From the NCBI GenBank assembly GCA_050124795.1, contig JASFEO010000004.1:1968-65967 (forward strand): a stretch of DNA of 64,000 nt. The letters are read 5' to 3'. Positions within the stretch are counted from its first letter, which is position 1. Every line of letters starts with the position of its first letter. Under the pieces are notes generated by a model, which made no database searches, had not been told where the DNA came from, and was given only the letters and a program-made list of their open reading frames with translations. The stretch comes from Candidatus Pacearchaeota archaeon. GTDB lineage: Archaea > Nanobdellota > Nanobdellia > Pacearchaeales > GW2011-AR1. Made by a program: the position numbers and the translations under genes. Positions 41,344 to 63,220 of this stretch are shown in pieces.

Positions 41344-41415
41344 AGGCCGGTCGTTCAATGGATAGGATACCAGGTTTCGGCCCTGTTGATGGGGGTTCGA
41401 CTCCCTCCCGGCCTG
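41344..41415 (+). tRNA. tRNA-Arg (anticodon UCG)
   Basis: Hand-folded cloverleaf: acceptor AGGCCGG/CCGGCCU, D stem GUUC/GGAU, anticodon stem CCAGG/CCUGU with loop UUUCGGC, T arm GGGGG-UUCGACU-CCCUC, discriminator G. No encoded CCA. Confidence 0.8.
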
Positions 41416-41520
41416 TAAAAATGGGTGAGAACCCCGGGTTCGATGAGCGATTTCGTGGTAGAATCATAATCCCAGTTGATTCGTGCGAGGTCGCGAACTT
41501 CCCTCCCGGCCTGTAAAAAT
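41403..41520 (+). repeat. 20-nt perfect direct repeat of the tRNA-Arg 3' end plus flank (41403-41422 and 41501-41520)
   Basis: CCCTCCCGGCCTGTAAAAAT occurs twice. Similarity extends upstream with two indels (tcgact / gcgaactt). Confidence 0.9.
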
Positions 41521-59243: not shown

Positions 59244-59315
59244 TGGTCCCACGCAGAATCGAACTGCGGTCTTATCCACGTCAAGGATATGTCTTGGCCA
59301 TTGGACTACAGGACC
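59244..59315 (-). tRNA. tRNA-Val (anticodon GAC)
   Basis: Hand-folded: acceptor GGUCCUG/UGGGACC (two G-U pairs), anticodon stem UAUCC/GGAUA with loop UUGACGU, T arm CGCAG-UUCGAUU-CUGCG, discriminator A. No encoded CCA. Confidence 0.85.
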
Positions 59316-59398
59316 TTCAACAGTGCTATCTAATCCTACTTATGACAACTTTTGAATGTGCTGTACAGGCAGGACCTTACAAAAAAGACAATTATTCA

Positions 59399-61958: not shown

Positions 61959-62618
61959 ATGATTAATAAATTATCAAAAGAATTAATTAAAAGAAAGGTC
62001 TATCACAAAATACAAGACAAGACAATCTTAACAAGAAAAACAAAAGTTTCAATACCTAAGATAAATAAAGATATAGCATATCTAATAGGGGTTATTGCAG
62101 GAGATGGTTCATTAGTTGCCACACCAAGGAAAAGAGGGGGCTATCACTATATCTTAAGAATTTATGCAGAAAAAGAAGAATATCTAAAACTATTAAACAA
62201 GATATTTGAAAAACATTTTTTATTAAAAGGCGGGATAAAAAAGGATAAAAGAAAAAGAAGTGCGTATTATCTCTTAATTCAAAATGCATCAATATTCTTT
62301 TATTTTGTAAATAATGGAAGTGAAATCGGCAAAAAACAAAGATTCAAAATCCCAAAGGCTATTCAAGAAAATAGAAGGTATTTCTTAGAATATCTCGCAG
62401 GTTTGGTCGATACAGACGGGCATATCGCAAGAAAAAGAGTCCATTTAAAACAAAAAAGTGAGGTCTTGTTGCGGGAAATAAACAAACTTGCAAATAAAGA
62501 AGGATTAAACTGCAACCTTCCAAAAGTAAATTATACAAATGAAGAACCATATTACTATATTCGGTTTGACAATAAAATACCCTTAAGATTTAAAACAAAC
62601 AAATTTTTAAAGGGTTGA
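61959..62618 (+). CDS. free-standing double-motif LAGLIDADG homing endonuclease
   Basis: Two LAGLIDADG motifs: YLIGVIAGDGSL and YLAGLVDTDGHI, about 110 aa apart. Confidence 0.85.
   Translation: MINKLSKELIKRKVYHKIQDKTILTRKTKVSIPKINKDIAYLIGVIAGDGSLVATPRKRGGYHYILRIYAEKEEYLKLLNKIFEKHFLLKGGIKKDKRKRSAYYLLIQNASIFFYFVNNGSEIGKKQRFKIPKAIQENRRYFLEYLAGLVDTDGHIARKRVHLKQKSEVLLREINKLANKEGLNCNLPKVNYTNEEPYYYIRFDNKIPLRFKTNKFLKG
62604..62611 (+). promoter_or_regulatory. TATA-box-like element upstream of the tRNA-Thr locus
   Basis: TTTTTAAA centred at about 62607, which would place a transcription start near 62634, i.e. 14 nt upstream of the mature tRNA 5' end. Confidence 0.3.
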
Positions 62619-62647
62619 TTATTACTGATTTAAGCCTGTGTTGGTAC

Positions 62648-62756
62648 GCCTGCATAGCTCAGTGGTAGAGCAAAGTGTTTTGAGTTTTCAAGAGACTCTG
62701 ACTCGCTCAGCTGCCTTGTAAGCAGTAGGCCGGGGGTTCGAATCCCTCTGCAGGCT
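62648..62756 (+). tRNA. tRNA-Thr (anticodon UGU) with a ~37-nt non-canonical intron near position 26/27
   Basis: Acceptor GCCUGCA/UGCAGGC, D arm GCUC-AGUGGUA-GAGC, then 37 extra nt (about 62673-62709), anticodon arm GCUGC-CUUGUAA-GCAGU, variable loop AGGCC, T arm GGGGG-UUCGAAU-CCCUC. Confidence 0.8.
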
Positions 62757-62759
62757 TGT

Positions 62760-62782
62760 ACACATTCTTTCCAAGAATGTGT
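62760..62782 (+). terminator. perfect 10-bp hairpin directly after tRNA-Thr
   Basis: ACACATTCTT-TCC-AAGAATGTGT followed by TTAATT. A role in termination or processing is assumed. Confidence 0.4.
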
Positions 62783-62784
62783 TA

Positions 62785-62916
62785 ATTCTGAGGGATTCAA
62801 AGTCATGTAAACACAAGAGCAATTGATTCTCGGGGGCCGAACAACCTTGTGATAAAAGTATCGCCGGCACAGAAACTTTGTGCAAAGTTGGGAGATAAAG
62901 GAATCCCCCACAGGCT
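62785..62916 (+). ncRNA. GC-enriched structured region of unknown identity, ending in a tRNA-3'-end-like segment
   Basis: Visibly more GC-rich than the flanks. Nested complementarities: 62792-62798/62901-62907, 62812-62817/62846-62851, hairpin 62867-62883. No credible ORF with a start codon. Confidence 0.35.
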
Positions 62917-62969
62917 TTTATATTCTAAACAAAATAAATCTTTATAACTAAGAACTTTCTAAAAATAAA

Positions 62970-63220
62970 ATGGCTTGGCAAGACATTTCAATAACAATAA
63001 TTATTATTGCATTTAGTTATGCATTAACCCCTCAAATTTACCTTGGCCTTAAAGAAAAAAAGGTCTAATAAATCTTCAGACTTCAATTATAACTGCTCTT
63101 GGCATGTATTCTCTTGCAGTTATTTATACAACAATAAATCTTTTTGTCTCATCAATTCTGGCATTAACAACAGGAATTCTCTGGACAATTTTATTTTTGC
63201 AGAAGATGATTTATAGATAA
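62970..63220 (+). pseudogene. PQ-loop/SemiSWEET-like 3-TM protein split by a frameshift at an A7 run
   Basis: MAWQDISITIIIIAFSYALTPQIYLGLKEKK stops at 63066. The other frame continues GLINLQTSIITALGMYSLAVIYTT...LWTILFLQKMIYR. One extra A in the run 63055-63061 fuses them (about 83 aa). Confidence 0.5.

What the first reader, a model, noticed from the sequence alone, without database searches (positions are those of the whole stretch)
62634..62916. Degenerate tRNA termini bracket the intact tRNA-Thr and a GC-rich structured segment
GCCTGTG (62634-62640) is perfectly complementary to CACAGGC (62909-62915). The upstream piece (GCCTGTGTTGGTA) resembles the tRNA 5' end (GCCTGCA..GTGGTA). The downstream piece (GGAATCCCCCACAGGCTT) resembles its T-arm and 3' end (CGAATCCCTCTGCAGGCTT). 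Between them lie the intact tRNA, a perfect 10-bp hairpin and about 130 nt of GC-enriched sequence with nested helices (62792-98/62901-07, 62812-17/62846-51, hairpin 62867-83). A TATA-like box at 62604-62611 would start transcription at about 62634. Possible readings are an old tRNA copy split by insertion of a new copy (integration scar), a processing stem enclosing tRNA plus an unknown small RNA, or a tRNA nested in the intron of a tRNA-like RNA. A start-less open frame (GIQSHVNTRAIDSRGPNNLVIKVSPAQKLCAKLGDKGIPHRLL) also crosses the segment, so it could be a gene remnant.
Basis: seen in the sequence. Interest (0 to 1): 0.7.

Follow-up and report, generated by a model that had tools for sequence, protein, structure and literature searches.

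The report
Leftover tRNA-Thr ends around replacement gene
The two short pieces that bracket the threonine tRNA gene are most likely leftover ends of an earlier copy of that gene, now wrapped around a newer intron-containing copy; this is an evolutionary scar typical of a recombination-prone tRNA locus, not a new RNA.

Summary
AAGCCTGTG (62632-62640) and CACAGGCTT (62909-62917) are a perfect 9-bp inverted repeat around tRNA-Thr(UGU). That tRNA is 62648-62756 and carries a 37-nt bulge-helix-bulge (BHB) intron at 62674-62710. The window comes from a Pacearchaeota-like DPANN archaeon. In relatives the order S3Ae, LAGLIDADG gene, tRNA-Thr is conserved. The closest relative has an intron-less tRNA-Thr with acceptor stem GCCTGTG/CACAGGC, which matches the outer pieces. 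A TTTTAAA box lies 22-24 nt before the tRNA start in relatives; here it lies 22 nt before the outer 5' piece, and the first T-run follows the outer 3' piece. So the old gene's promoter and terminator still bracket a newer intron-bearing gene. About ten related lineages carry similar 5' copies and several carry 3' copies, in no single clade. The 118 nt at 62783-62900 have no Rfam, Pfam or homology hit, no significant folding, and hold only small tRNA-derived scraps. Nested-tRNA, new-small-RNA and gene-remnant readings are not supported. The mechanism (allele replacement, integration scar or repair duplication) is inferred. This is a known kind of feature, of modest interest.

The parts
62604..62611 (+). 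TATA box (TTTTTAAA) of the tRNA-Thr transcription unit, inside the last codons of the LAGLIDADG ORF
   Evidence: A TTT(T)AAA box ends 21-26 nt before tRNA +1 in most relic-free tRNA genes of relatives. Here it ends 22 nt before the outer 5' piece. The role as promoter is inferred from archaeal promoter geometry, not shown.
62632..62646 (+). 5' vestige: copy of the tRNA-Thr acceptor 5' strand (GCCTGTG, 62634-40) plus spacer TTGGTA (then C 62647). Probable transcription start and 14-nt leader of the present tRNA.
   Evidence: The 7-mer is identical to the acceptor 5' strand of orthologous tRNA-Thr in L006, L014, L018 and L028. Homologous 5' copies with a spacer occur in L012, L027, L023, L055, L076, L084, L081, L092, L098 and L099.
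62648..62756 (+). Functional tRNA-Thr(UGU) gene. Exons 62648-62673 and 62711-62756; BHB intron 62674-62710 between tRNA positions 27 and 28.
   Evidence: Rfam tRNA model 48.6 bits, E 2.6e-9. A complete hBHBh' motif is present (h GGTA/TGCC, H GAGC/GCTC, bulges AA|A and AG|C). The motif is conserved with covariation in h' across 10 alleles.
62760..62782 (+). Perfect 10-bp hairpin (ACACATTCTT-TCC-AAGAATGTGT) in the trailer. Function unknown; no T-run follows it.
   Evidence: I2. No terminator-like call. No other copy in the window or in the loci.
62788..62801 (-). Inverted fragment of a tRNA-Thr T-loop and T-stem (TTTGAATCCCTC on the minus strand)
   Evidence: 12-nt exact match to the T-arm of L002, L006 and L011 on the opposite strand. 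nhmmer E 0.057. Inverted repeat I1.
62802..62900 (+). About 100 nt of unassigned sequence, moderately G+C-enriched. It contains a weak second copy of the 3'-end unit (62851-62872 GATAAAAGTATCGCCGGCACAG).
   Evidence: No Rfam hit. No tRNA-core similarity. No protein similarity. Fold z -0.83. The internal repeat reaches the observed score in 44 of 2000 shuffles.
62901..62919 (+). 3' vestige: T-loop/T-stem remnant, acceptor 3' strand and discriminator (GAATCCCCCACAGGCTT), then the T-run TTTT (62916-62919), the probable old terminator
   Evidence: nhmmer E 0.027. 17 of 18 positions match the L006 allele, and CCACAGGCTTTT is identical to L014. The termination role of the T-run is inferred.
61959..62618 (+). 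Context: conserved free-standing double-motif LAGLIDADG endonuclease gene immediately upstream
   Evidence: Pfam LAGLIDADG_3 E 1e-12. 55 homologs at 45-69% identity. Synteny S3Ae-(S51)-LAGLIDADG-tRNA-Thr holds in all relatives examined.

Best explanation
The outer pieces are vestigial ends of a tRNA-Thr(UGU) gene that once occupied this conserved position just after the LAGLIDADG gene.

A DNA segment carrying a different allele of the same tRNA now lies between those ends. That allele has acceptor stem GCCTGCA/TGCAGGC, a CTGC/GCAG anticodon stem and a BHB intron at 27/28. About 150 nt of extra sequence came with it or accumulated afterwards.

The old promoter (TATA box 22 nt upstream of the 5' vestige) and the old terminator (T-run after the 3' vestige) were kept. 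The present gene is therefore probably transcribed as a precursor of about 285 nt. In that precursor the 5' vestige is a 14-nt leader and the 3' vestige ends a 160-nt trailer.

The 7-9 bp outer complementarity simply reflects that the two pieces are the two halves of one acceptor stem. The vestiges have no function as a tRNA.

Shown: the identity of the pieces, their position, the functional intron-bearing inner gene, and recurrence in relatives. Inferred: the direction and mechanism of the event. I favour recombination with an incoming allele or double-strand-break repair at a hotspot next to the homing-endonuclease gene. The transcript boundaries and removal of the leader by RNase P are also inferred.
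For: 1. Synteny: tRNA-Thr(UGU) follows the LAGLIDADG gene by 10-37 nt in every relative.
2. The closest relative (L006, endonuclease 69% identical) has an intron-less tRNA-Thr with acceptor GCCTGTG/CACAGGC and 3' end TTTGAATCCCTCCACAGGCTT. These are the outer pieces.
3. The 5' vestige starts 15 nt after the endonuclease stop codon and 22 nt after the conserved TTTTAAA box. In relic-free loci the tRNA itself starts at that distance.
4. The inner tRNA lacks the T-run that directly follows the tRNA in most relatives examined (for example L002, L008, L003, L014, L012, L076). The first TTTT follows the 3' vestige.
5. The inner gene is a bona fide intron-bearing tRNA with a complete BHB shared by 10 alleles, with covariation.
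6. Recurrence: 5' copies GCCTGYR plus a 1-13 nt spacer lie at the transcription-start position in about 10 lineages. 3' copies lie downstream in L011, L023, L099 and at the window's own tRNA-Arg.
7. Relic-bearing lineages are scattered in the endonuclease tree. Introns can be 95% identical where the neighbouring endonucleases are 60% identical. This points to allele exchange at this locus.
8. The literature precedent involves the same tRNA family: Caldiarchaeum tRNA-Thr has a 5' fragment left at the original site plus a new intron-bearing copy (PMC3293823). tRNA gene fragments are pervasive by-products of integration (PMC9897764).
Against: 1. Only four acceptor variants (GCCTG-YR) exist at this locus. 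The match of the vestiges to L006, and to each other, therefore has a chance probability of roughly 1/4 each once they are accepted as tRNA-Thr ends.
2. The spacer family T(T)TGGTA(A)C after the 5' copy is shared by lineages with distant endonucleases (window, L012, L076, L084, L098). The 5' piece may thus have arrived with the incoming cassette, or be old and conserved, rather than being an in-situ leftover.
3. All seven differences between the 5' copies and the functional 5' strands in the unbiased sample fall at positions 6-7. Plain neutral decay would not predict that.
4. No pre-insertion ('empty') allele of the same species was found.
5. No mobile-element gene lies between the pieces.
Confidence: 0.68

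Rival explanations
1. Classical site-specific integration scars. One or more integrative elements recombined with the tRNA-Thr gene and duplicated the att core (tRNA 3' end plus trailer; separately the 5' end). The elements were later almost entirely deleted, leaving att copies 15-160 nt from the gene. On this view the outer pieces come from separate events, not from one old gene.
For: Downstream copies include trailer sequence, as att duplications do. Examples are the window's tRNA-Arg 21-nt perfect repeat, L023's 16-nt repeat and L099's repeat of about 45 nt. There are arrays of 3' copies in L011 and a weak second copy in the window. Archaeal integrases are known to target tRNA 3' or 5' ends with cores of about 44 bp (PMC3293823, PMC9897764).
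Against: No integrase or any ORF lies between the copies in any locus. The Thr 3' copy is only 17 of 21 identical to the inner tRNA end, but it matches another allele. The 5' copies abut the tRNA within 1-13 nt in about 10 lineages, which random deletion of an element would not give. No viral contig carries the segment or the 5' module.
Confidence: 0.17
2. Functional RNA element. The 5' acceptor-strand copy plus short hairpin is a selected leader. In the window it pairs with the 3' piece to form a long-range processing stem, like the stems flanking archaeal rRNAs, possibly releasing the tRNA and a second small RNA.
For: The outer stem forms in the minimum-free-energy and centroid folds of 62625-62925 (z -3.41). 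The first five bases GCCTG are intact in all five independently sampled 5' copies. Spacers can form small hairpins with different sequences (GTGC/GCAC, CCTC/GGAG, ATGC/GCAT). The transcription unit probably spans both pieces.
Against: The downstream partner is absent in relatives with the same leader and a homologous tRNA (L076, L084, L012, L092). No BHB could be placed at the leader/tRNA junction or in the outer stem by inspection using the geometry verified. Spacer hairpins are not significant against shuffled spacers (combined P 0.26). The segment 62785-62920 folds no better than shuffles and has no Rfam hit. The low z-score of the whole region is largely attributable to the tRNA and the 10-bp hairpin.
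Confidence: 0.08
3. A functional outer tRNA(-like) gene whose giant intron contains the inner tRNA.
For: There is a 7-bp acceptor-like stem. Multi-intron tRNA-Thr genes exist in relatives (three introns in L014/L015). A possible CAAC-CTTGTG...GTTG arm can be drawn by eye at 62842-62890.
Against: There is no D stem and no intact T arm (18 nt where 22 are needed). No tRNA model hit other than the inner gene appears even at E<=10. The spliced-alignment test is not significant (43 of 300 shuffles reach it). The anticodon would duplicate the inner one.
Confidence: 0.02
4. Chance similarity or a decayed protein-coding gene.
For: Short words are involved. A 45-codon open frame crosses the segment.
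Against: The joint occurrence of both acceptor halves of a real orthologous allele, at the syntenic transcription-start and terminator positions, is far beyond chance. There are no Pfam hits and no tblastx similarity to any related locus.
Confidence: 0.05

Closest known systems
tRNA-Thr(GGU) locus heterogeneity in Caldiarchaeum subterraneum (Sugahara et al. 2012, PMC3293823)
   Same: Same tRNA family. A 5' fragment of the older allele stays at the original upstream site. The working gene downstream is a different allele that carries an extra non-canonical BHB intron just after the D arm (24/25 there, 27/28 here).
   Different: There, a 1.8-kb insertion encoding a recombinase separates the fragment from the gene, and no 3' fragment was reported. 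Here the 5' fragment abuts the gene (1-nt gap). A 3' fragment lies 145 nt downstream, and there is no recombinase.
tRNA gene fragments (att duplications) left by integrative elements in archaea and bacteria (for example SSV1, pNOB8-type plasmids, PYG1; reviewed in PMC9897764)
   Same: A partial copy of a tRNA end lies in direct orientation next to an intact tRNA gene. Trailer bases are included in some copies (tRNA-Arg in this window, L023, L099).
   Different: No element lies between the repeats (40-160 nt instead of 9-23 kb). The Thr copies are not identical to the resident gene but to another allele. Both ends of the gene are represented.
Archaeal tRNA genes with non-canonical BHB introns, multiple introns, or split/permuted organisation (Thermoproteales, Nanoarchaeum, Caldivirga; PMC4090602, PMC3218864)
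   Same: The inner gene is a standard member, with an hBHBh' intron at a non-canonical position. Relatives carry up to three introns.
   Different: The outer pieces are not exons of a split or permuted gene. There is no BHB at their junctions, no missing half elsewhere is required, and the inner gene is complete.
Leaderless tRNA transcription in Nanoarchaeum equitans, which lacks RNase P (own knowledge: Randau et al. 2008; cited in PMC10100707)
   Same: The promoter box sits at a fixed distance so that transcription starts at or next to tRNA +1 in most relic-free genes of these relatives.
   Different: In the window the fixed distance points to the vestige, so the present tRNA has a 14-nt leader. 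Whether this organism has RNase P could not be tested.

Membership tests
tRNA (Rfam RF00005): outer pieces as a working tRNA | 7-bp acceptor stem with discriminator | tested here: met
   GCCTGTG/CACAGGC plus T
tRNA (Rfam RF00005): outer pieces as a working tRNA | D arm, anticodon arm and T arm giving a cloverleaf; covariance-model score | tested here: not met
   No model hit besides the inner gene at E<=10. No significant core similarity. The T-arm region is 4 nt too short and mispaired.
Archaeal intron-containing tRNA (inner gene 62648-62756) | Bulge-helix-bulge motif: two 3-nt bulges separated by a 4-bp helix, flanked by helices, placing both splice sites | tested here: met
   h GGTA/TGCC, H GAGC/GCTC, bulges AA|A and AG|C, h' GTGTT/GACTC. 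The same architecture occurs in 10 alleles with compensatory changes in h'.
Archaeal intron-containing tRNA (inner gene 62648-62756) | Cloverleaf and correct anticodon after intron removal | tested here: met
   Rfam 48.6 bits over model positions 1-71. The spliced sequence aligns over its full length with intron-less orthologs.
att-site duplication by a site-specific integrase | Direct repeat of a tRNA end flanking the inserted DNA | tested here: inconclusive
   CAGGCTTGTA/CAGGCTTTTA and GAATCCC...CAGGCTT are repeated 160 nt apart at 17 of 21 identity. The repeat is perfect and 21 nt long at tRNA-Arg.
att-site duplication by a site-specific integrase | Integrated element with integrase (or its remnant) between the repeats | tested here: not met
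   Only about 145 nt lie between them. There is no ORF with Pfam or tblastx similarity and no match in viral contigs.
Sugahara-type tRNA gene disruption (fragment plus intron-gained copy) | 5' fragment of the older allele retained at the original promoter, with a new allele carrying an extra intron downstream | tested here: met
Sugahara-type tRNA gene disruption (fragment plus intron-gained copy) | Mobile element with recombinase between fragment and gene | tested here: not met
   A 1-nt gap in the window and 1-13 nt spacers in relatives
Split or permuted tRNA / BHB processing stem | BHB formed by leader and trailer (or by the two halves) that directs endonuclease cleavage at the junctions | tested here: not met
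   By inspection with the geometry validated, no 4-bp helix flanked by 3-nt bulges can be placed at 62646/62648 or in the 62632-40/62909-17 stem. The downstream partner is not conserved.
Described non-coding RNA families (Rfam 15) | Covariance-model match for 62757-62916 | tested here: not met
   Only chance-level hits (E 0.86-6.8) far below gathering scores

The most novel reading that the evidence does not exclude
The tRNA-Thr(UGU) locus beside a conserved, apparently intact LAGLIDADG homing endonuclease may be an active allele-exchange hotspot in Pacearchaeota. On this reading, endonuclease-induced breaks or a dedicated recombinase repeatedly drive replacement of the tRNA by intron-bearing alleles, a homing-like spread of BHB introns. 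The 5' acceptor-strand copy plus mini-hairpin at the fixed transcription start would be a selected leader or landing pad, in organisms otherwise built for leaderless tRNA transcription, rather than debris.
Probability: 0.12. Interest if true: 0.7.

Novelty: new member of a known kind. Interest (0 to 1): 0.33.

Why it matters
The locus is a well-preserved snapshot of tRNA gene turnover in a DPANN archaeon. An intron-bearing allele sits inside the shell of its predecessor, between the old transcription start and the old terminator. How archaeal tRNA genes gain non-canonical introns and become fragmented is still debated, and the only detailed case so far is Caldiarchaeum. About ten related lineages show the same kind of 5' copy. 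Nearly identical introns occur next to strongly diverged neighbouring genes. Together these suggest that allele or intron exchange at this locus is ongoing and could be studied with metagenomes. Practically, it warns annotators in two ways. ARAGORN misplaces this tRNA. Fragments like these can also be mistaken for new structured RNAs.

Tried and rejected
- Rfam at permissive threshold over 62400-63100 found only the inner tRNA.
- Folding of the downstream segment gave z = -0.83, so it is not a demonstrably structured RNA.
- I looked for more of the old tRNA between 62783 and 62900. Local alignment to five alleles on both strands was not significant. A spliced alignment that allows an intron was not significant either (43 of 300 shuffles). 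The eye-drawn arm CAAC-CTTGTG|34 nt|A-GTTG is therefore unproven.
- I looked for other copies of the segment. There were none in the window or in about 100 fetched loci (blastn, tblastx), and none in viral contigs.
- Pfam on the open frames of both strands gave nothing.
- I tested for a conserved hairpin in the 5' spacer. It is suggestive by eye but not significant against shuffled spacers.
- I tried by hand to place a BHB at the leader/tRNA junction, or an intron at positions 5/6-7/8 that would make the 5' copy a true exon. The required 4-bp helix cannot form, so I rejected this.
- I tested for a single origin of relic-bearing lineages. It is not supported by the neighbour-joining trees of the endonuclease, but those trees are weak.
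- The interior of the tRNA-Arg insert is not significantly a decayed tRNA-Arg.
- The viral contig L068 carries an ordinary tRNA-Thr in a tRNA array and is not informative.

Full report
**What is in the sequence.** The window is AT-rich (32% G+C). Between the end of a LAGLIDADG endonuclease ORF (61959-62618; Pfam LAGLIDADG_3) and a small membrane-protein gene (from 62970) lies the following series:
- a TTTTTAAA box (62604-62611);
- GCCTGTG-TTGGTA-C (62634-62647);
- a tRNA-Thr(UGU) gene (62648-62756);
- a perfect 10-bp hairpin (62760-62782);
- about 118 nt of moderately G+C-enriched sequence (62783-62900);
- GAATCCCCCACAGGCTT followed by TTTT (62901-62919).

The word GCCTGTG occurs four times on both strands of the 64 kb, with 1.6 expected, and two of those copies bracket this tRNA. 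An independent assembly (L001) has the identical sequence, so this is not a one-off assembly artefact.

**The inner gene.** ARAGORN places the tRNA at 62683-62757. The Rfam covariance model places it at 62648-62756, with an insertion after the D arm (48.6 bits). The insertion is a 37-nt intron (62674-62710) between positions 27 and 28. It has a complete archaeal bulge-helix-bulge motif:
- outer helix GGTA/TGCC;
- central 4-bp helix GAGC/GCTC;
- 3-nt bulges AA|A and AG|C;
- inner helix GTGTT/GACTC.

The same architecture is present in ten orthologous alleles, with compensatory changes in the inner helix. The inner gene is therefore a normal, functional, intron-containing archaeal tRNA.

**Where it comes from and what relatives look like.** Homologs of the LAGLIDADG protein (45-69% identity) carry source names such as Pacearchaeota, Woesearchaeota and Nanoarchaeota. 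In all contigs examined the order is ribosomal protein S3Ae, sometimes peptidase S51, the LAGLIDADG gene, then tRNA-Thr(UGU) 10-37 nt after the stop codon. The tRNA has from zero to three introns:
- none in L002, L006, L008, L011 and L018;
- one at 27/28 in the window, L003, L012, L021, L023 and L027; other single-intron alleles are L025 (37/38), L055 (T-loop), and L024 and L026 (position not determined);
- two in L028;
- three in L014/L015.

The closest relative, L006 (endonuclease 69% identical), has an intron-less gene: GCCTGTG-TA-GCTC...GGGGGTTTGAATCCCTC-CACAGGC-TT. Its acceptor stem is exactly the pair of outer 7-mers in the window. Its 3' end matches 62901-62917 at 17 of 18 positions. 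A profile of intron-less orthologs finds the 3' piece (E 0.027 in the 880 nt searched) and also an inverted T-loop/T-stem fragment at 62788-62801 (E 0.057) (12-nt exact matches).

**Position relative to transcription signals.** In most relic-free tRNA genes of these organisms a TTT(T)AAA box ends 21-26 nt before tRNA position +1. This is the geometry of transcription starting at or next to +1, as described for Nanoarchaeum (own knowledge; see PMC10100707). In the window the box ends 22 nt before the outer 5' piece and 36 nt before the present tRNA. In most relatives examined the tRNA is followed directly by a T-run. In the window the inner tRNA is followed by TTGTAC, and the first TTTT comes right after the outer 3' piece. 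My inference is that the old gene's promoter and terminator still delimit the unit. The present tRNA would then be made from a precursor of about 285 nt, with a 14-nt leader and a 160-nt trailer. This is inferred, not shown.

**Is the outer pair a working RNA?**
- As a tRNA, no. There is no D stem. The region before the 3' strand is 4 nt too short for a variable loop plus T arm and does not pair. No model hit appears even at E<=10. Neither plain nor intron-tolerant alignment finds the tRNA core between 62783 and 62900.
- As a new structured RNA, there is no support. 62785-62920 folds no better than shuffles (z -0.83). The z of -3.41 for the whole 301 nt is explained by the tRNA and the 10-bp hairpin. 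There is no Rfam match, no homolog in the window or in about 100 related loci, and none in viral contigs.
- As a gene remnant, the open frames have no Pfam or tblastx similarity.
- The segment does contain a weak second copy of the 3'-end unit, GATAAAAGTATCGCCGGCACAG against GATAAAGGAATCCCC-CACAG (44 of 2000 shuffles reach the score). It looks like accumulated tRNA-end debris.

**Recurrence.** This is not a one-off.
- Among loci found through the endonuclease, five lineages carry a copy of the acceptor 5' strand directly upstream of the real tRNA:
  - window: GCCTGTG+TTGGTAC;
  - L012: GCCTGCA+TTGGTTAT;
  - L027: GCCTGCA+T;
  - L023: GCCTGTA+GTGCTTAGCAC;
  - L055: GCCTGTA+CCTCTTAGGAG.
- A metagenome pattern scan added L076, L081, L084, L092, L094, L098 and L099.
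- In every case the TATA box is 22-24 nt from the copy, not from the tRNA.
- 3' copies, often including trailer bases, lie 48-246 nt downstream in L011 (two copies), L023 and L099, and at the window's tRNA-Arg, which has a 21-nt perfect repeat.
- The window's tRNA-Val has its first 7 nt repeated 61 nt upstream, again 22 nt after a TATA-like box.

Relic-bearing lineages are scattered in neighbour-joining trees of the endonuclease. Introns can be 95% identical (L012/L028) where the adjacent endonucleases are 60% identical. Both facts point to repeated exchange or replacement of alleles at this locus rather than one ancient accident.

**Mechanism.** I commit to the following. The outer pieces are the ends of a former tRNA-Thr gene. 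Recombination placed a different, intron-bearing allele plus flanking DNA inside that gene's transcription unit, and the redundant old interior was lost or never retained. The closest precedent is the Caldiarchaeum tRNA-Thr locus. There, a 5' fragment (positions 1-27) of the older allele stays at the original site, and the working copy has gained an intron at 24/25 through a mobile element (PMC3293823). tRNA gene fragments are a pervasive product of integration into tRNA genes (PMC9897764). The differences here are:
- no element or recombinase lies between the pieces;
- the 5' piece abuts the gene;
- both ends are represented;
- the pieces match another allele rather than the resident gene.

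A pure att-scar model therefore remains a rival at about 0.17. The conserved LAGLIDADG gene immediately upstream, with the tRNA's TATA box inside its last codons, makes break-induced repair at this site an attractive but untested cause.

**Caveats.**
- Only four acceptor variants exist at this locus, so the agreement of the vestiges with L006 and with each other is not by itself strong.
- The spacer family T(T)TGGTA(A)C is shared by lineages with distant endonucleases. The 5' piece may therefore be older than the window's lineage, or may travel with the cassette.
- In the unbiased sample all differences between 5' copies and working 5' strands fall at positions 6-7, while GCCTG is intact. This leaves room for selection on the leader.
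- I tested the obvious functional ideas. A hairpin in the spacer is not significant. A BHB at the leader/tRNA junction, or a 5'-terminal intron, cannot be built.
- Whether the organism has RNase P to remove the leader could not be tested in a 64-kb window.

**Verdict.** The 'old tRNA copy / scar' reading is supported and the other readings are not. This is a new example of a known kind of feature, with modest interest (0.33). The main residual novelty is the possibility that this endonuclease-linked tRNA locus is an active allele and intron exchange hotspot with a selected leader (probability about 0.12).

Noticed in passing
window 61959-62618 (+): A free-standing double-motif LAGLIDADG endonuclease gene is conserved (45-69% identity) and strictly syntenic (S3Ae-[S51]-LAGLIDADG-tRNA-Thr) across Pacearchaeota/Woesearchaeota-like genomes. 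The tRNA's TATA box lies inside its last codons. In L055 only the last 27 codons remain.
   Followed up: partly
window 41344-41520 (+): tRNA-Arg(UCG) is followed by a 21-nt perfect direct repeat of its 3' end plus 7 trailer bases (TCCCTCCCGGCCTGTAAAAAT at 41402-41422 and 41500-41520). The 77 nt in between are 49% G+C and are not significantly tRNA-like.
   Followed up: partly
window 59244-59380 (-): tRNA-Val(GAC) has its first 7 nt (GGTCCTG) repeated 61 nt upstream, 22 nt after a TATA-like TTTTATAA. This implies a leader of about 60 nt that starts with a copy of the acceptor strand. Ten other tRNA-Val genes in relatives lack this.
   Followed up: partly
window 62970-63220 (+): A small membrane-protein gene is split by a frameshift at an A7 run (63052-63058). 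Its homologs in L076, L084 and L098 are single ORFs of 82-85 aa. This could be a sequencing error, a pseudogene or slippage.
   Followed up: partly
window 62683-62757 versus 62648-62756: ARAGORN mis-places the tRNA-Thr because of the non-canonical intron at 27/28. It also misses the intron-bearing orthologs entirely in L003, L012 and L014.
   Followed up: yes
L014 3572-3743, L015, L028 2163-2298, L003 2508-2651, L014 1757-1895: Relatives have heavily interrupted tRNA genes. tRNA-Thr has three introns in L014/L015 (about 26/27, 37/38 and the T-loop) and two in L028. tRNA-Val genes are 139-144 nt long.
   Followed up: partly
relic-free tRNA genes in L002, L003, L006, L008, L011, L014, L018, L025, L028 and window 41344: The TTT(T)AAA box ends 21-26 nt before tRNA +1 in most genes. 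This promoter geometry, leaderless or nearly so, resembles that reported for Nanoarchaeum equitans, which lacks RNase P.
   Followed up: partly
L012 / L014 / L027 / L028 tRNA-Thr first intron: These introns are 84-95% identical although the adjacent endonuclease proteins are only 54-72% identical. This suggests either strong constraint on the intron or recent exchange of tRNA alleles between lineages.
   Followed up: partly
L011 about 1565-1580; L006 1150-1350; L018 1-43; L055 1760-1960: Other debris and repeats lie near tRNA loci. L011 has an orphan tRNA-Val 3' end (CTGCGGGACCAT) without a tRNA-Val gene. L006 has a tandem repeat of about 95 nt that shares a GGAAGGTT..GTAAGGAAACC motif with the region upstream of tRNA-Val in L018. 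L055 has tandem copies of the end of the YbjQ gene.
   Followed up: no
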